Below, one piece after another: positions 31,133 to 35,678 of a DNA stretch of 64,000 bases. The position numbers were made by a program, and so were the translations under genes. Source of the stretch: Chloroflexota bacterium (GTDB lineage Bacteria > Chloroflexota > Dehalococcoidia > E44-bin15). Position 1 is the first letter of the stretch; every line of letters starts with the position of its first letter. The stretch spans positions 2,109 to 66,108 of the forward strand of contig JAUVVB010000010.1 in assembly GCA_030604825.1 (NCBI GenBank), read 5' to 3'. The notes beneath the pieces are model-generated. The model was not told the DNA's origin and ran no database searches. It saw only the letters and a list, made by a program, of their open reading frames with translations.

Positions 31133-31207
31133 TGGAGCCAGCGGTCGGATTCGAACCGACGACCGACGGTTTACGAAACCGTTGCTCTGCCTCTGAGCTA
31201 CGCTGGC
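31133..31207 (-). tRNA. tRNA-Thr (anticodon CGU)
   Basis: Manual cloverleaf: GCCAGCG-UA-GCUC-AGAGGCAGA-GAGC-A-ACGGU-UUCGUAA-ACCGU-CGGUC-GUCGG-UUCGAAU-CCGAC-CGCUGGC-U-CCA. Upstream promoter TTGCCC-N17-TATAAT at about 31228-31256. Confidence 0.9.
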
Positions 31208-31398
31208 CCTCAACCGGATTTAATTCCGCCACAATTATATACTACCGAGAAAAGCTGGGCAACTTCCTTCGCTATGCTGAGGAGCACGGCTACCCAGCAA
31301 CGCTGGGGCAATACACAGGTGCCTGCGGAATATCATTCTACAGATTGACCAACTGGCCGTTTTTAACTTCCCGATGGTATCACCTCTTGCAGTCCCGG

Positions 31399-32595
31399 TC
31401 ACCATTCCATCTCTATAGTAGCTACGGGTTCCCACTCGCCATCCTGGAAGATGCGGACAAAATAGTGGCTACCCCATCTCTCATGGGGGATGCCCCACTC
31501 CTCCTCGCCGGTCCATCGATATGTATAACCGAACATCTCCAGTTTGCTTTCCTCCATTGCTGGCACCACCACATCGACATCGAAGCTGTCTACCTCCTCA
31601 AACACCTGAACCATCCAGTGAACCCAAAAGTAGCCTCCCGCGGCTACGTCGCTCCACAACTCCTTGCCATACCTCTCGACGAACCTTTGGTAGAAGGCCC
31701 TCTCCTCCGCTGTCCCCTTCTCCCAAACGGCAAAGCTCACGCCGATGAAGCCCTCAGCATATTCGACACCTGCGGCCACGCGCAAGACAGCAGCTTCGGG
31801 TGGGGTGCAGCTAAAGAGCAGACCAGCGTAGCCCATCTCCCGGGCCTGCTTGACGATGAGGGCACAGGAACTCGGTGTAGACGGTGTTGTATCGATGAGG
31901 TCTGGCTCCCGGGCTAGCATCCTGGTAACGAAGGGGGTGAAGTCGGTGGCGCCCATCTCAAAGAGTTCTCTGGCCACCACCTCCATACCCCGCGCCTCGG
32001 CTGCATTGCTGGCCAACTCCTGGGCCTCCTCGCCACTCGTGGTGTGCCCGCTTATCAGGGCCACCCTCTTGACCGCGGGGTGATTCTCCGCAAGCCACTG
32101 GTAGCCAGCATCAGCAATGAACTGGGGAGCCGACAAAAAGGCGAAGGTATAGGGATACTCCGGGCCGAGGGGGAAGGATGGCCCAGCCGTGGTGGCGGCA
32201 AAAAGAACCACGTGGTTCTCCTCGGTGATGGGCCTTACCGCCATAGCGCAGCTAGTGCCAATGGGGCCAAAGATGTACTCAACTTTTTCGTCGAAGATGA
32301 GCTTTTGAACTGCGGTCACCGATTCCTCAGGCTGCACTTTATCATCCGCCACCACTATCTGGAGCGCGTATCTCTGCCCGCCGATCACGATCCCCCCTTG
32401 CTCGTTGATCTCGTCTACAGCCATCTCTGCCCCTCCCATAAATGGGAGGAACCAGGGGGCGGCAGGGCCTGTCAGTGGGCCGATGAATCCCAGCTTGTAC
32501 GTCCTGCCCTCCTCACCTGGTCCGCAGGAAGCGGTGAACACCAGAACAAGCGCCATGAGAACTAACCATACGCTCACTAACCACCTTTTCATCAC
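31399..32595 (-). CDS. Solute-binding lipoprotein, periplasmic-binding-protein type I (Leu/Ile/Val-binding-like), with no adjacent permease or ATPase genes
   Basis: 398 aa. Signal peptide plus lipobox (LVFTASCG). The overall PBP1/LivJ-like pattern (FIGPLTG...GAEMAVDEINEQGG...) is present. Confidence 0.7.
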   Translation of the reverse strand: MMKRWLVSVWLVLMALVLVFTASCGPGEEGRTYKLGFIGPLTGPAAPWFLPFMGGAEMAVDEINEQGGIVIGGQRYALQIVVADDKVQPEESVTAVQKLIFDEKVEYIFGPIGTSCAMAVRPITEENHVVLFAATTAGPSFPLGPEYPYTFAFLSAPQFIADAGYQWLAENHPAVKRVALISGHTTSGEEAQELASNAAEARGMEVVARELFEMGATDFTPFVTRMLAREPDLIDTTPSTPSSCALIVKQAREMGYAGLLFSCTPPEAAVLRVAAGVEYAEGFIGVSFAVWEKGTAEERAFYQRFVERYGKELWSDVAAGGYFWVHWMVQVFEEVDSFDVDVVVPAMEESKLEMFGYTYRWTGEEEWGIPHERWGSHYFVRIFQDGEWEPVATIEMEW

Positions 32596-32832
32596 GGCCT
32601 CCTCTTTAAACTCATGATTCAGGACTTCCTATTCCTGTCCACATCCCCTGGCTGGGCTTATCTGTTAAACGACATCTGTTGCACTAAGACCGGCCGATCT
32701 CTGTGATGGTTTCAATGAGGCAGGCTTTTTGCCCGACTAGCGAGGTCCCTCTTTGAGGGAACGGTTTGGAAGGGCAAGAGGCTCGTGAACGAACCCCGTG
32801 CACGAATAGCATATGATAAGCTGTCTAAGCTG
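32596..32832 (-). promoter_or_regulatory. Leader element copy A: promoter TTGACA-N17-TATGCT followed by a roughly 150-nt conserved structured 5' UTR upstream of the solute-binding-protein gene
   Basis: Shares about 85% identity over about 135 nt with copy B and is homologous to copy C. Contains conserved hairpins UCCCUC-AAA-GAGGGA, CGGGC-AAAAA-GCCUG and CCC-AGCCA-GGG. Confidence 0.5.
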
Positions 32833-34062
32833 TCAACCGCTCACTGCGGTCGTCGCCCGCCGACCGGTCTCCCTGACGAAGAGGACCAAAACCGGCGGTA
32901 TGAGGGCCAGGCCGGCGATGAAGTAGAACCCCGCTGCCGCTATGCCGGTGGCGGTCATGACCAGACCCATCAACAAGGGAATGGCAAAGCCGCCGATGCG
33001 GCTGACGGTGAAGATGCCGCCAAAGGCACTGCCCGCCAGGATGGGGCCGACCTCCTTCAGCTCTATGACGATAGACCTGAGCTGCGGCAGGGAGCACCCC
33101 AGCAGGAAACCGCTCAGCAGAAAGACAAGGTACAGGGGCCACCCCCAGAGAACCGCAACCAGCGCTACCATGCCGGCGTTGGCAAAGAAGAAGGGCCAAA
33201 CGAACACCTTCCTCAGGCCGACCCGGTCTGAGAGCCAGGAGCCCACGAACATGCCCAGTATGCCGGTCCACGTGGCCAGGGAGGCAAATACACCCGCCTC
33301 AGTCTCCGACATCCCTTTCTCCACCAAGAAGGTGGGGACTATGGCCACAACAGCTAAGAGGTTGCCAATAACGAACATCTCGACGACACCCAGCAGCCAG
33401 ATGTCCCTGACGCTGAAAACCTGGCGCAACCCTTTCAACATGGGTGGCCGTGCCCTCATTTGCTCGGCCATCGCCCCAGTGGGTTCCCGCTCCCTGGCCG
33501 CCACCAGCCATAGGATCCAAGAGGCGATGGCAAGCCCGCCACCCAGGAACATCACATTTTGCCAGCCGCCCAGCGCGGCAGCCAGCGGAGCTGCCACAAT
33601 CAGCGCCAGCCCGCCTCCGATGAAGGGGCCCATGAGCAGGATGCCATTGGCCCGGCTCAGCTCCGAGGGGCCGAACCACATGGCCACCCCCTTGGCCAGG
33701 TTGGGGGTGACGAAGCCGTAGCTCACGCCCATCAGCAACATAGGCAGCCACAGGCTCCAGAAGTTGAAGGCGAAGCCCCTCAGCCCGCCAAGGATGGCGG
33801 TGAAGATGAGGGCTATGACTATCACCTTCTTCACCCCAAAGCGGTCGGCGGCCACACCCCCGATGAGGGAGAAGAAGAGCATCCCCAAGGGCAGCGCCCC
33901 CCATATTAAACCGATTTGAGCATAGCTTAAGGCAAAGTCAACCTCTATTTGGGGAAAGAGGGGGGGCATTATCATCAGAACAAAGCCATTGACGATGAGG
34001 TTTATCAGGAAGAGATAGCTCAGCATCGGCCATCTGTATGCTACTTTCTCTTCAACTGCCAT
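32833..34062 (-). CDS. MFS transporter (12 TM)
   Basis: 409-aa polytopic membrane protein with the MFS motif GGVAADRFGVKK after TM2. Confidence 0.8.
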   Translation of the reverse strand: MAVEEKVAYRWPMLSYLFLINLIVNGFVLMIMPPLFPQIEVDFALSYAQIGLIWGALPLGMLFFSLIGGVAADRFGVKKVIVIALIFTAILGGLRGFAFNFWSLWLPMLLMGVSYGFVTPNLAKGVAMWFGPSELSRANGILLMGPFIGGGLALIVAAPLAAALGGWQNVMFLGGGLAIASWILWLVAAREREPTGAMAEQMRARPPMLKGLRQVFSVRDIWLLGVVEMFVIGNLLAVVAIVPTFLVEKGMSETEAGVFASLATWTGILGMFVGSWLSDRVGLRKVFVWPFFFANAGMVALVAVLWGWPLYLVFLLSGFLLGCSLPQLRSIVIELKEVGPILAGSAFGGIFTVSRIGGFAIPLLMGLVMTATGIAAAGFYFIAGLALIPPVLVLFVRETGRRATTAVSG

Positions 34063-34346
34063 TCTCTGCTCATCTCATATTCTGGCGGAGTCACTTCGTT
34101 GTTCCTGTCGTTGCACCCTGTTCACTGGCTCATCCCATTAGCGCCACTCCACATCCCCTGGCTGGGCTTATCTCTTAACAGCCATCTATTGCGCTAAGAC
34201 TAGCAAATCTCTGCGGTGATTTCAATGAGCCAGGCTTCTTGCCCGACGACTGAGGTCCCTCATGAGGGAACGATTTGGAGGGGCTGGAGAGGGCGCCTTA
34301 GGAAATCGCCGCCCTGCCAGAGGTGGCCTCTCCTCCACGCTGGTTT
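34063..34346 (-). promoter_or_regulatory. Leader element copy B (conserved structured 5' UTR upstream of the MFS gene)
   Basis: The 135-nt core at about 34151-34285 is roughly 85% identical to copy A. Confidence 0.5.
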
Positions 34347-34706
34347 TCAGCTCCACTCAACCCATATCTCGTAGCGACTTGGGCACCCTCTTTGTTGATA
34401 CATGAGCTCAAAGTGAGCTGACTGTCCTGGCCTCAGGTCAAATATAGGTTCAGATGCTTCACCAAGAAGCGCACCGTTAGCGTCATACCACTCAACAGAT
34501 ACGTCTACCTCATCTGCAGCATATTCACCCATATTCGCCACAGCACCCCTGACATAACATGTGCAATAGTCGCCAGTGGCAGACCGTTCACACTCTTGGC
34601 TGTGGTTGAGGATCCGCACATAGGTCGGTGGTAGCGACATCCCACCGTAGCAGCCTGCTGTAGCGATTAACACCAAGATAGCAGCCAAGGTTACGATATA
34701 CTTCAT
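34347..34706 (-). CDS. Small lipoprotein (about 120 aa; DUF4352-like beta-sandwich?), about 50% GC
   Basis: The track ORF was trimmed to start at MKYIVTLAAILVLIATAGC (signal peptide plus lipobox Cys). Rest of the protein: ..DVSVEWYDANGALLGEASEPIFDLRPGQSAHFEL. Confidence 0.45.
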   Translation of the reverse strand: MKYIVTLAAILVLIATAGCYGGMSLPPTYVRILNHSQECERSATGDYCTCYVRGAVANMGEYAADEVDVSVEWYDANGALLGEASEPIFDLRPGQSAHFELMYQQRGCPSRYEIWVEWS

Positions 34707-34892
34707 TGCTGCACCTTGCCTAGCCATCAAGCCTCGACCTATTAGACTTGGGAGCGGCCAGCTTGACAGCAGAGCAACAGTATGATAGGCTTCCGCAATT
34801 CCTCTATGAAGAGACCCGGGCACCTGGGAGGGCGCTGGTCGCTCGCACCTCGGAGCAGGCACCCGGGCCTCTTCATTTCCACTTCTAACCGT

Positions 34893-35129
34893 TCATGTAT
34901 GCGCTTTACTTGCTCGGTCAAATAGCCTTTTCATCAGCAAGCATATCCCCGTGATGCTACAGGCTATTACCCATCCCAGTATAAGCCATCTCCACTCGCC
35001 GTCCATCACAAAACCTGCCAAGTCAAGGCTGCCAAAAAGCAGGAATATGCACCAAGAGAACAGCCCAAAACGGGTTCTAGTACCGTAGTTGCTCATTATG
35101 CCTTGGACATACTCTAGTGTTCTTATCAT
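34893..35129 (-). CDS. Small 2-TM membrane protein (about 78 aa), about 47% GC
   Basis: The track ORF 34893..35201 begins inside the region homologous to the noncoding leader A, so I set the start at MIRTLEYV (35129). Two hydrophobic helices (FGLFSWCIFLLFGSL and WLILGWVIACSITGICLL). Confidence 0.35.
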   Translation of the reverse strand: MIRTLEYVQGIMSNYGTRTRFGLFSWCIFLLFGSLDLAGFVMDGEWRWLILGWVIACSITGICLLMKRLFDRASKAHT

Positions 35130-35164
35130 GCTCAGCCGGTCACCAAAACCCTGAGACTGCCACA

Positions 35165-35330
35165 CCAGCGCTGACGCCAGCAGACATTCTTGGTAGTTCA
35201 ACGAGACGGGCTTCTTGCCCGACTAGCGAGGTCCCTTATGAGGGAACGATTTGGAACGCTAGGAGGCTGGTAAACGAACCCAGCGCGGGGATAGGATACA
35301 CGGACTTCGCTGGATTGTCAACTCTAGGGC
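35165..35330 (-). promoter_or_regulatory. Leader element copy C: promoter TTGACA-N17-TATCCT followed by a diverged copy of the conserved leader
   Basis: GUUCCCUCAUAAGGGACCUCGCUAGUCGGGCAAGAAGCCCG aligns with copies A and B. The second hairpin shows a U-to-C change that turns a G-U pair into G-C. Confidence 0.45.
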
Positions 35331-35396
35331 GCGGGAGGCGGTCGGTGTAGCGCTACAATGCAACTTTGTGCCTCAAGGGGTCGGCGCCCCCAGGGG

Positions 35397-35558
35397 TCAG
35401 TCCTCTGCCTTTTCCTTACATTCCTCCATTTCCTTCCTGGCCTCTTCGGCAAGCCAGTCATCTGGGGCCGGCATCAAGGAGGTCCACATATGACGGAGCA
35501 TCAGTCTTTCCATAGCGAGTAGTTTTCTCTTCATGACTTCGGCTTCCTTCTCGTCCAT
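35397..35558 (-). CDS. Possible small protein (53 aa, MDEKEAEVMKRKLLAMERLMLRHMWTSLMPAPDDWLAEEARKEMEECKEKAED)
   Basis: ATG preceded by GGTGAGGGTGAG. Too short for the supplied track. Lies between the tRNA fragment and leader C. Confidence 0.25.
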   Translation of the reverse strand: MDEKEAEVMKRKLLAMERLMLRHMWTSLMPAPDDWLAEEARKEMEECKEKAED

Positions 35559-35635
35559 CTCACCCTCACCACCTGACTAACAGAATGAACAACCCTTTCG
35601 CTCGTGACAGGATTTCCAGCCAAGCTGAAGCTAGG

Positions 35636-35678
35636 CGGGGTTTACGAAACCGTTGCTCTGCCGCTGAGCTACGCTGGC
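35636..35678 (-). repeat. Duplicated 5' half of tRNA-Thr (positions 1 to about 40, one mismatch), with no 3' half
   Basis: ggtttacgaaaccgttgctctgccGctgagctacgctggc compared with ggtttacgaaaccgttgctctgccTctgagctacgctggc in the intact gene at 31168-31207. Confidence 0.8.

What the first reader, a model, noticed from the sequence alone, without database searches (positions are those of the whole stretch)
32596..35330. Three diverged copies of a roughly 150-nt promoter-plus-structured-leader upstream of three consecutive transporter-type units (candidate new cis-regulatory RNA)
A conserved element sits about 35-90 nt upstream of the start codons of the solute-binding protein, the MFS transporter and the small-TM/lipoprotein pair. 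Copies A (32596-32832) and B (34063-34346) share about 85% identity over 135 nt, and copy C (35165-35330) is more diverged. Copies A and C carry their own TTGACA-N17-TAtnnT promoter about 25 nt before the conserved core, so the core is transcribed as 5' UTR. Three hairpins are kept in all copies (UCCCUC/GAGGGA, CGGGC/GCCYG, CCC/GGG). In copy C a U-to-C change converts a G-U into a G-C pair in hairpin 2, which is consistent with selection on structure. The pattern resembles a riboswitch or attenuator regulon and does not match any riboswitch consensus I know (TPP, SAM, cobalamin, glycine, guanidine I-III, fluoride, ZTP, Mn, T-box).
Basis: seen in the sequence. Interest (0 to 1): 0.7.

Follow-up and report, generated by a model that had tools for sequence, protein, structure and literature searches.

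The report
Repeated promoter-leader RNA module in islet
Three genes on a small inserted piece of DNA in a Dehalococcoidia-type bacterium each carry a copy of the same short leader with two fixed hairpins, often with its promoter; it is probably a new lineage-specific regulatory leader RNA, but the evidence does not show a riboswitch.

Summary
A 66-nt core occurs three times on the minus strand (32706-32771, 34216-34280, 35192-35256). Copies A and C share a TTGACA-N17-TATnnT promoter, and A and B share a 3' extension. No Rfam family matches. A covariance model finds no other copy in the 64-kb window. Small hairpins on the gene-sense strand are modestly supported. G·U pairs would be A·C on the other strand. 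One P2 pair occurs as G-C, G·U and A-U. The P1 loop length varies. A third hairpin keeps its pairing through three double changes. The riboswitch-regulon reading is not supported. Homologues of the binding protein and the MFS transporter elsewhere lack the element. Two further independent copies precede unrelated genes, one of them about 140 nt upstream of a c-di-GMP-I aptamer. No conserved terminator or Shine-Dalgarno-masking platform was found. Only six distinct sequences exist. All three window copies lie in a ~4.4-kb insertion at tRNA-Thr that is absent from ten syntenic contigs of relatives. Best reading: a lineage-specific, promoter-proximal leader RNA module copied in front of island genes, acting in cis as a docking site for a shared factor. 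Interest is moderate to low.

The parts
32596..32836 (-). Copy A, the whole module between the MFS stop codon and the start of the binding-protein gene. It has the promoter, a 5' hairpin, the core, P3 and the A/B-type 3' extension.
32808..32836 (-). Copy A promoter, TTGACA-N17-TATGCT. The -35 box overlaps the MFS stop codon.
   Evidence: 10 of 12 positions match
32706..32771 (-). Copy A core: single-stranded UUCCAAACCGU, P1 at 32746-32760, ACCUC linker, P2 at 32718-32738, then CUCAUUGAA.
   Evidence: (87.3 bits)
32686..32701 (-). Copy A hairpin P3, GAGAUC-GGCC-GGUCUU.
   Evidence: helix 4
32638..32705 (-). 3' extension shared only by A and B. It includes the CCC/GGG hairpin and the GGGGAUGUGGA box, where a 10-codon ORF starts (32612-32644).
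34063..34346 (-). Copy B, the whole intergenic region between the lipoprotein-like gene and the MFS gene. It has no sigma-70-type promoter, and the sequence upstream of its core is unrelated to A and C.
34216..34280 (-). Copy B core (P1 34256-34269, P2 34228-34248).
   Evidence: (84.1 bits)
34196..34211 (-). Copy B hairpin P3, GAGAUU-UGCU-AGUCUU. The closing pair is U-A where copy A has C-G.
35165..35330 (-). Copy C: promoter, 5' hairpin, core and P3, upstream of the small two-TM ORF.
35293..35321 (-). Copy C promoter, TTGACA-N17-TATCCT. The -10 box reads TATGCT in strains L008, L018 and L019.
35192..35256 (-). Copy C core (P1 35232-35245, P2 35204-35224).
   Evidence: (83.5 bits)
35173..35188 (-). 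Copy C hairpin P3, AAUGUC-UGCU-GGCGUC. Two pairs are changed on both sides relative to copy A.
31399..32595 (-). Solute-binding protein gene (Peripla_BP_6), downstream of copy A.
32833..34062 (-). MFS_1 transporter gene, downstream of copy B.
34347..34712 (-). Lipoprotein-like gene. Its N-terminus MKYIVTLAAILVLIATAGC contains a lipobox. No Pfam family matches.
34893..35132 (-). Small ORF with two predicted TM segments, downstream of copy C. It has no Pfam match and was not called as a gene in the Logan contigs.
31208..35638 (.). Inserted islet of about 4.4 kb that holds all three copies. It is absent from syntenic loci of relatives and contains no integrase ORF.
31133..31207 (-). Complete tRNA-Thr(CGU) gene at one end of the islet.
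35639..35678 (-). 40-nt copy of the 5' half of tRNA-Thr (39 of 40 identical), forming a direct repeat at the other end of the islet.

Best explanation
The element is a lineage-specific, promoter-proximal 5' leader RNA module. It has been copied, whole or in part, in front of unrelated genes carried on inserted or low-GC DNA of a Dehalococcoidia-type bacterium. Where the promoter is present (A, C, L005, and a weaker one in L004), transcription starts about 30-45 nt before a 66-nt core. In the transcript the core forms two short hairpins of fixed sequence (P1 UCCCUC/GAGGGA, and P2 CGGGC/GCCYG with an A-rich pentaloop). These are flanked by fixed single-stranded segments (UUCCAAAUCGU, ACCUC, CUCAUUGAA) and followed by a hairpin of free sequence (P3). 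I infer that the fixed hairpins and single strands are a common docking site for one trans-acting partner. That partner is most likely an RNA-binding protein or the transcription elongation complex itself (nut/put-like), and less likely a small ligand. On this reading all genes carrying the module are co-controlled at the level of transcript elongation or stability, not by masking each ribosome-binding site. Shown: the repeats, the promoters, strand-specific pairing, restriction to the islet, absence from Rfam. Inferred: transcription through the core, the existence of a partner, and the level of control.
For: Three copies score 83-87 bits with the core model, with nothing else in the window. 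Consensus promoters lie 36 nt (A, C) and 53 nt (L005) upstream of the core. Ten G·U or U·G cells in P1/P2 would be A·C on the other strand, and pair 39-51 occurs as G·U, G-C and A-U. The spacing between the P1 half-sites is 2, 3 or 4 nt; a hairpin loop tolerates this but a dimeric DNA operator would not. Three of the six P3 pairs changed on both sides among A, B and C. In a crude substitution simulation, the chance of keeping P3 pairing was about 0.04-0.06 per comparison. In strain contig L018 the copy A core carries six changes within 36 nt; none breaks P1 or P2, and one turns a G·U pair into A-U. Copy B keeps the core although it has no promoter, so the core is not merely a passenger of a promoter. 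Independent copies in L004/L006/L007 and in L005 have unrelated flanks but an 87-92% identical core, in the same orientation as the downstream gene. Distance to the promoter is fairly constant, while distance to the start codon ranges from about 10 nt to more than 300 nt.
Against: Only six distinct sequences are known. P1 and P2 have no pair changed on both sides, and the shuffle controls are not exceeded (336 of 500; 100 of 500). Folding energies of the window copies are ordinary (z -1.0 to -1.5). No transcript data exist. No candidate partner protein is encoded next to the copies. The six-change patch in L018 could mean relaxed constraint or gene conversion, not selection. Concerted evolution among copies could account for part of the sequence identity. 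A copy upstream of a c-di-GMP-I aptamer fits poorly with an antitermination role if that riboswitch acts by termination.
Confidence: 0.45

Rival explanations
1. The copies are a putative mobile promoter with a hitch-hiking leader. They arose by local duplication and recombination that supplied promoters to newly acquired island genes. On this reading the conserved core has no RNA function of its own, and its similarity reflects recent copying and gene conversion.
For: The module meets the operational definition of a putative mobile promoter: 50-100 nt of non-coding DNA at 80% identity or more upstream of non-homologous genes in one genome (PMC3488235; identities; gene families). All copies lie in one 4.4-kb inserted islet. 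The copies are mosaic: A shares its 5' part with C and its 3' part with B. L018 shows a clustered six-change patch that looks like gene conversion. A and B carry 10-codon ORF remnants that begin like the ORF after C.
Against: Copy B retains the core but not the promoter. L005 shares only the core, and its promoter region has no homology apart from the TTGACA hexamer itself. The flanks have diverged beyond recognition while the core stays 87-92% identical. Substitutions avoid breaking the stems.
Confidence: 0.25
2. The core is the aptamer of a new metabolite-, ion- or second-messenger-sensing riboswitch class, and P3 together with downstream sequence forms the expression platform.
For: The element lies in 5' leaders and has conserved single-stranded segments next to small helices. 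No known family matches. In L005, P3 contains the likely start codon. Tandem arrangement with another riboswitch, as in L004, has precedents.
Against: There is no coherent gene set: the downstream genes are a binding protein, an MFS transporter, a small membrane ORF, a c-di-GMP-I aptamer with a small ORF, and a PsbP-like protein with ComEA. Homologues of the transporters elsewhere lack the element. Stems are invariant and loops vary. No enclosing helix is supported (p 0.3-0.9). No terminator or common Shine-Dalgarno pairing was found. The element is confined to one narrow lineage.
Confidence: 0.12
3. The element works at the DNA level. The two inverted repeats (TCCCTC..GAGGGA and GTCGGGC..GCCCGAC) would be operators for a repressor bound downstream of the promoter, or sites for a recombinase of the islet.
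For: Both halves of each repeat are fixed in sequence while the centre varies, as in protein-bound palindromes. The copies lie in mobile-looking DNA.
Against: Half-site spacing in P1 varies from 2 to 4 bp. The symmetric change to CAGGC..GCCTG in L018 keeps pairing but alters both half-sites. P3 keeps pairing with different sequences. The ends do not match the attC R boxes except GTTGAAC in copy C, and the islet encodes no integrase or regulator.
Confidence: 0.1
4. The element is a small non-autonomous mobile repeat (MITE- or REP-like) with no fixed relation to genes.
For: Homology boundaries are sharp and the genomic contexts are unrelated.
Against: No terminal inverted repeats were found (0 inverted pairs of 14 nt or more), and no target-site duplications were seen on reading the flanks. 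Only three copies occur in 64 kb, all within 2.7 kb. None occurs in about 96 kb from relatives. All five independent contexts have the same orientation as the downstream gene, and four of the five have a TTGACA -35 box upstream (three pass the promoter scan).
Confidence: 0.05

Closest known systems
Putative mobile promoters (Matus-Garcia, Nijveen and van Passel 2012, PMC3488235)
   Same: These are highly similar 50-100-nt non-coding stretches upstream of non-homologous genes within one genome, often of unknown mechanism. The window copies meet that operational definition.
   Different: Here the shared part is mainly the transcribed leader, not the promoter. One copy has no promoter, and the leader shows hairpins maintained by structure-preserving changes.
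Orphan structured 5' leader motifs and riboswitch candidates as catalogued in Rfam
   Same: It is a short conserved motif in 5' leaders, on the sense strand, with small helices and conserved single strands.
   Different: No Rfam model matches. There is no coherent downstream gene set, the stems are invariant and the loops variable, and there are too few members for covariation statistics.
Phage lambda nut and rrn leader antitermination sites (boxA plus boxB), and HK022 put RNA. The sequences are recalled from memory; the papers consulted (PMC3177189, PMC2800207) gave no sequences in text.
   Same: Small hairpins lie shortly after a strong promoter on mobile DNA. P2 is a 5-bp G+C stem with a purine-rich pentaloop (AAAAA, AAGAA, GAAAA) like boxB. 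The GCUCAUUG that follows in copies B and L005 resembles the 8-nt boxA core. put consists of two hairpins acting in cis.
   Different: The boxA-like segment is partly paired and is not conserved in copies A, C and L004. No N-like protein gene is nearby. One copy precedes a riboswitch. This is a resemblance only; nothing was tested.
tRNA- or tmRNA-targeted genomic islands of Dehalococcoidia (general knowledge; for example the ssrA islands of Dehalococcoides)
   Same: The islet is flanked by a direct repeat of part of a tRNA gene and is absent from relatives.
   Different: The repeat is the 5' half of the tRNA, not the 3' end. There is no integrase, and the insert is only 4.4 kb.

Membership tests
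Any Rfam 15 family (riboswitches, leaders, sRNAs) | A covariance-model score at or above the family's gathering threshold. | tested here: not met
   (whole window, gathering threshold) finds only 5S rRNA, a tRNA and c-di-GMP-II. (32500-35500, E up to 10) gives only chance-level hits: mir-2450 at 25 bits against a threshold of 59, and PhotoRC-I at 15 against 45.
Riboswitch (as a kind) | Helices supported by covariation around conserved junction nucleotides. | tested here: inconclusive
   P1 and P2 have no double-sided changes and only wobble-type changes. P3 has 3 of 6 pairs changed on both sides, but among only three sequences. The shuffle controls are not exceeded.
Riboswitch (as a kind) | Association with a functionally coherent gene set across genomes. 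| tested here: not met
   The downstream genes are unrelated to one another. Loci of binding-protein and MFS homologues lack the element.
Riboswitch (as a kind) | An expression platform, either a terminator/antiterminator or Shine-Dalgarno sequestration coupled to the aptamer. | tested here: inconclusive
   No terminator-like site follows any copy. There is no common anti-SD pairing. Only in L005 does P3 cover the likely start codon. The closing helix is at chance level.
Riboswitch (as a kind) | Direct ligand binding. | not testable with these tools
   This needs in-line probing or ITC.
Putative mobile promoter (PMC3488235) | Non-coding stretches of 50-100 nt at 80% identity or more, upstream of non-homologous CDSs in one genome. 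| tested here: met
   Identities are 84% over 138 nt, 82% over 103 nt and 88% over 59 nt. The downstream genes are Peripla_BP_6, MFS_1 and an unclassified small ORF.
MITE / REP-type repeat | Terminal inverted repeats, and many dispersed copies in either orientation. | tested here: not met
   No inverted repeat of 14 nt or more was found. There are three clustered copies in 64 kb, all in the same orientation. The whole genome could not be searched.
Integron attC site | R''/R' boxes (RYYYAAC ... GTTRRRY) at the ends, a position at the 3' end of promoterless cassettes, and an intI gene nearby. | tested here: not met
   Reading of the sequence shows GTTGAAC only in copy C and no RYYYAAC partner. 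Copies A and C carry their own promoters. The islet contains no integrase ORF.
nut / rrn-type antitermination site | A boxA sequence bound by NusB-NusE, plus a boxB-type hairpin. | tested here: inconclusive
   A boxB-like P2 is present in all copies. The boxA-like GCUCAUUG is present only in B and L005 and diverges in A, C and L004. The consensus was recalled from memory, and binding cannot be tested here.
tRNA-integrated genomic island | A direct repeat of a tRNA segment at both ends, and absence from syntenic relatives. | tested here: met
   The 40-nt repeat is 39 of 40 identical. Ten contigs of relatives (L020-L029) show CBS followed after about 200 nt by the next shared gene, with no insert; the intact tRNA-Thr in that gap was confirmed in L020.
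tRNA-integrated genomic island | An integrase gene of its own. | tested here: not met
   The islet holds only five ORFs, and none has an integrase domain.

The most novel reading that the evidence does not exclude
The 66-nt core is a new class of cis-acting regulatory RNA restricted to mobile islets of marine-sediment Dehalococcoidia. It would be either a riboswitch for a general signal, or a put/nut-like RNA that reprograms RNA polymerase right after strong promoters. On this reading it travels as a portable expression cassette that lets newly acquired genes be expressed and co-controlled.
Probability: 0.12. Interest if true: 0.65.

Novelty: new member of a known kind. Interest (0 to 1): 0.35.

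Why it matters
If the core is a functional leader RNA, it would be a rare regulatory element described for Dehalococcoidia, a class that is hard to grow and for which few regulatory RNAs are known. It would also show how a small inserted islet brings its own promoter-leader cassette to express unrelated cargo genes. If it is only a propagated promoter region, it is one more example of a common phenomenon (more than 4000 such families were reported in PMC3488235).

Tried and rejected
1. Rfam, at gathering thresholds and in permissive mode, gave no family.
2. Pattern scans of the genome and metagenome collections returned only L004 to L008 as true hits (L003 was a chance match). A viral-contig scan found nothing (one search was a syntax error). 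Phage and plasmid BLAST found nothing.
3. Look-ups of binding-protein paralogues on NCBI contigs failed because the proteins were not on record. The two loci that could be fetched lack the element.
4. Nine loci of MFS homologues lack the element.
5. A closing helix between the 5' flank and a downstream UGGA-type segment looked convincing by eye in every copy, but RNAduplex against shuffles gave p 0.3-0.9, so I rejected it.
6. Pairing of the CCUC motifs with the downstream Shine-Dalgarno sequence is plausible only for copy A and is not general.
7. Coding potential of the core is rejected: loop indels break every frame, and only copy B has a start codon.
8. A stand-alone sRNA is unlikely: copy B has no promoter, and no terminator follows P3.
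9. attC, MITE and operator readings are covered under the membership tests.
10. Thermodynamic stability is not informative for the window copies (z about -1 to -1.5).
11. I tried to confirm the boxA consensus from papers, but the texts held no sequence, so that resemblance remains a recollection.
Full report
**Observation**

The genes of the region lie on the minus strand:
- a Peripla_BP_6 solute-binding protein (31399-32595)
- an MFS_1 transporter (32833-34062)
- a lipoprotein-like gene (34347-34712)
- a small ORF with two predicted TM segments (34893-35132)

The three gene-free stretches in front of them contain related sequence.
- A versus B: 84% identity over 138 nt.
- A versus C: 82% over 103 nt.
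- B versus C: 88% over 59 nt.

The copies are mosaic. A and C share the 5' part, including a consensus-like promoter: TTGACA-17-TATGCT at 32836-32808 and TTGACA-17-TATCCT at 35321-35293, each matching 10 of 12 positions. A and B share a 3' extension. Only a 66-nt core is common to all three: 32706-32771, 34216-34280 and 35192-35256.

A covariance model of the core was run without filters over both strands of the whole window. It scores 83-87 bits on these three sites and at most 11.5 bits elsewhere.

One detail of the finding is wrong. The CCC/GGG hairpin exists only in A and B. The third hairpin kept in all three copies is a different one, directly after CUCAUUGAA.

**Known families**

Rfam 15 gives no match, either at gathering thresholds or at E up to 10. 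The window does contain a 5S rRNA, a tRNA-Thr and a c-di-GMP-II riboswitch, so the search itself works.

**Copies elsewhere**

A stem-agnostic pattern was scanned over the genome and metagenome collections. It returned one chance hit (L003) and five true hits.
- L008 is the same locus as copy C in another sample.
- L004, L006 and L007 are one further locus.
- L005 is a second further locus.

In both new loci the core is 87-92% identical to the window copies, while the flanks are unrelated.

In L005 a TTGACA-17-TAGGAT promoter lies 53 nt upstream of the core. In L004 a homologue of the copy C promoter is present, with a weak -10 box.

The downstream genes differ from those in the window.
- In L004 the core is followed after about 140 nt by a c-di-GMP-I aptamer (80 bits) and a 75-aa ORF.
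- In L005 it is followed by a PsbP-like 92-aa ORF and a ComEA-type protein.

Loci encoding homologues of the binding protein (L001, L002) and of the MFS transporter (L009-L017, 65-70% identity) have no copy. The MFS homologues sit in acyl-CoA dehydrogenase and glycyl-radical enzyme neighbourhoods. Viral contigs, phages and plasmids have none. The element is therefore not tied to these transporter families. It belongs to a narrow lineage.

**Genomic setting**

BLAST of the strain contigs against the window exposed a 40-nt copy of the 5' half of tRNA-Thr(CGU) at 35639-35678. It is 39 of 40 identical to positions 31168-31207 of the complete tRNA gene at 31133-31207.

Homologues of the neighbouring CBS-domain protein are named Dehalococcoidia or Chloroflexota where a name exists.

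In ten contigs of relatives (L020-L029), the CBS gene is followed after about 200 nt by the next gene that the window shares with them, a 217- or 222-aa protein. On the longer contigs TreT, MFS_3, an AP endonuclease and guanylate kinase follow, which is the order that flanks the region in the window. In L020, where it was checked, that 200-nt gap holds an intact tRNA-Thr.

The 4.4 kb between the tRNA and its partial copy (31208-35638) is missing in all of these contigs. It is therefore an inserted islet. It has no integrase ORF. Part of it has a lower G+C content (0.53-0.54 against 0.58-0.61).

All three copies are inside the islet. About 96 kb of sequence from the relatives has no copy.

**Is it RNA structure?**

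*Evidence for*
1. In six distinct cores, 95% of cells in P1, P2a and P2 form standard pairs, against 26-57% when the 3' partners are slid by 1-3 columns.
2. Ten of those cells are G·U or U·G. They would be A·C on the plus strand, so pairing is specific to the gene-sense strand.
3. Pair 39-51 of P2 occurs as G-C (C, L004), G·U (A, B, L005) and A-U (copy A in strain L018). This is a classical route through a wobble intermediate.
4. The two halves of P1 are separated by 2, 3 or 4 nt in different copies. A hairpin loop tolerates this; a dimeric DNA operator does not.
5. P3 keeps 17 of 18 cells paired in A, B and C although 4 to 8 of its 16 positions differ between them. Three of its six pairs changed on both sides. 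A crude substitution simulation gives about 0.04-0.06 per comparison.
6. L004 and L005 have unrelated hairpins at the same place.
7. In strain contig L018 (99.1% identical overall), the core of copy A carries six changes within 36 nt. All are in loops or single strands or preserve pairing.

*Evidence against*
1. P1 and P2 have no double-sided change.
2. The shuffle controls are not exceeded.
3. Folding energies of the window copies are ordinary (z -1.0 to -1.5).
4. There are only six sequences.

I conclude that small hairpins in the transcript are likely but not proven.

**How it may work**

The core lies at a fairly constant distance from the promoter, 36 to 53 nt after the -10 box. Its distance to the start codon varies from about 10 nt to more than 300 nt.

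No terminator-like site follows any copy. No pairing with the ribosome-binding site is common to the copies. An enclosing helix that I thought I saw in every copy is at chance level.

Both strands of P1 and the inner five pairs of P2 never change, while the loops do. Copy B keeps the core without a promoter.

These features fit a docking site for a common partner that acts early on the transcript better than they fit a metabolite aptamer with a gene-specific platform. The partner could be an RNA-binding protein or the elongation complex.

From memory, P2 (a 5-bp stem with an A-rich pentaloop) looks like boxB. The GCUCAUUG that follows in copies B and L005 looks like the 8-nt boxA core. HK022 put is likewise two hairpins just after a promoter. 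I could not verify the consensus sequences from the papers I opened. The boxA-like segment is also not conserved in A, C and L004. This is a lead, not a result.

The plainest rival is that the copies are a propagated promoter region. They meet the operational definition of putative mobile promoters (PMC3488235). A and B carry 10-codon ORFs beginning AUG UGG. These look like remnants of the start of the ORF that follows copy C (GUG UGG), as expected if promoter, leader and gene start were copied together.

**Verdict**

The repeat is real and is not in Rfam. It is probably a lineage-specific leader RNA module carried on a small inserted islet. The riboswitch-regulon interpretation is only partly supported. 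Its core claims, a transporter-linked regulon and covariation, do not hold up with the data available.

Novelty: a new member of a known kind (propagated promoter-leader modules, or orphan leader motifs).

Interest is moderate to low. It would rise if a genome-wide search showed many 5'-of-gene copies with covariation.

Noticed in passing
window 31208-35638, with 31133-31207 and 35639-35678: A segment of about 4.4 kb is bounded by tRNA-Thr(CGU) and a 40-nt copy of that tRNA's 5' half. It is absent from ten syntenic contigs of relatives, so it is an inserted islet. It has no integrase. The duplicated part is the 5' half of the tRNA, which is unusual.
   Followed up: yes
L004 545-635 (also in L006; L007 ends before this position): A c-di-GMP-I riboswitch aptamer (80 bits) lies about 140 nt downstream of a copy of the element. 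No promoter was detected between them, so the two may form a tandem leader.
   Followed up: partly
window 61757-61840 (-): A c-di-GMP-II riboswitch (62.5 bits) lies directly upstream of a 102-aa membrane-protein ORF (61435-61743).
   Followed up: partly
window 62843-62960 (-) and 63000-64000: The 5S rRNA gene stands alone: no 23S rRNA lies upstream. The adjacent 1 kb is strikingly AT-rich compared with the 58% G+C window.
   Followed up: partly
window 34810-34872 (-): A long, nearly perfect G+C-rich hairpin (about 17 bp) lies between the small-TM ORF and the lipoprotein-like gene. It was picked up as a false mir-2450 hit. It may be a terminator or a processing site within the islet.
   Followed up: no
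window 32612-32644 (-) and 34122-34154 (-); compare about 35171 (-): Copies A and B each contain a 10-codon ORF (AUG UGG ... UGA) that starts in the shared GGGGAUGUGGA box, although the sequence after it is unrelated. Copy C has GUG UGG in frame with the small-TM ORF. This is either a remnant of a copied gene start or a leader peptide.
   Followed up: partly
L018 3731-3795 (equivalent to window 32734-32769): In a 99.1%-identical strain contig, the core of copy A alone carries six changes within 36 nt. This looks like a short gene-conversion tract from an unseen fourth copy, or like relaxed constraint.
   Followed up: partly
L009 4483-5235, L011 9300-10001, L017 2095-2564: MFS homologues (65-70% identity) in other lineages follow gene-free stretches of 470-750 nt, next to acyl-CoA dehydrogenase, nitroreductase and glycyl-radical enzyme genes. 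In the one stretch searched (L011), Rfam finds nothing convincing.
   Followed up: partly
one search hit table (contigs of 49,556 and 71,215 nt, not fetched): Related MAG contigs carry three to six paralogues of the binding protein each (48-58% identity). These contigs could not be retrieved, so whether they carry the element is unknown.
   Followed up: no
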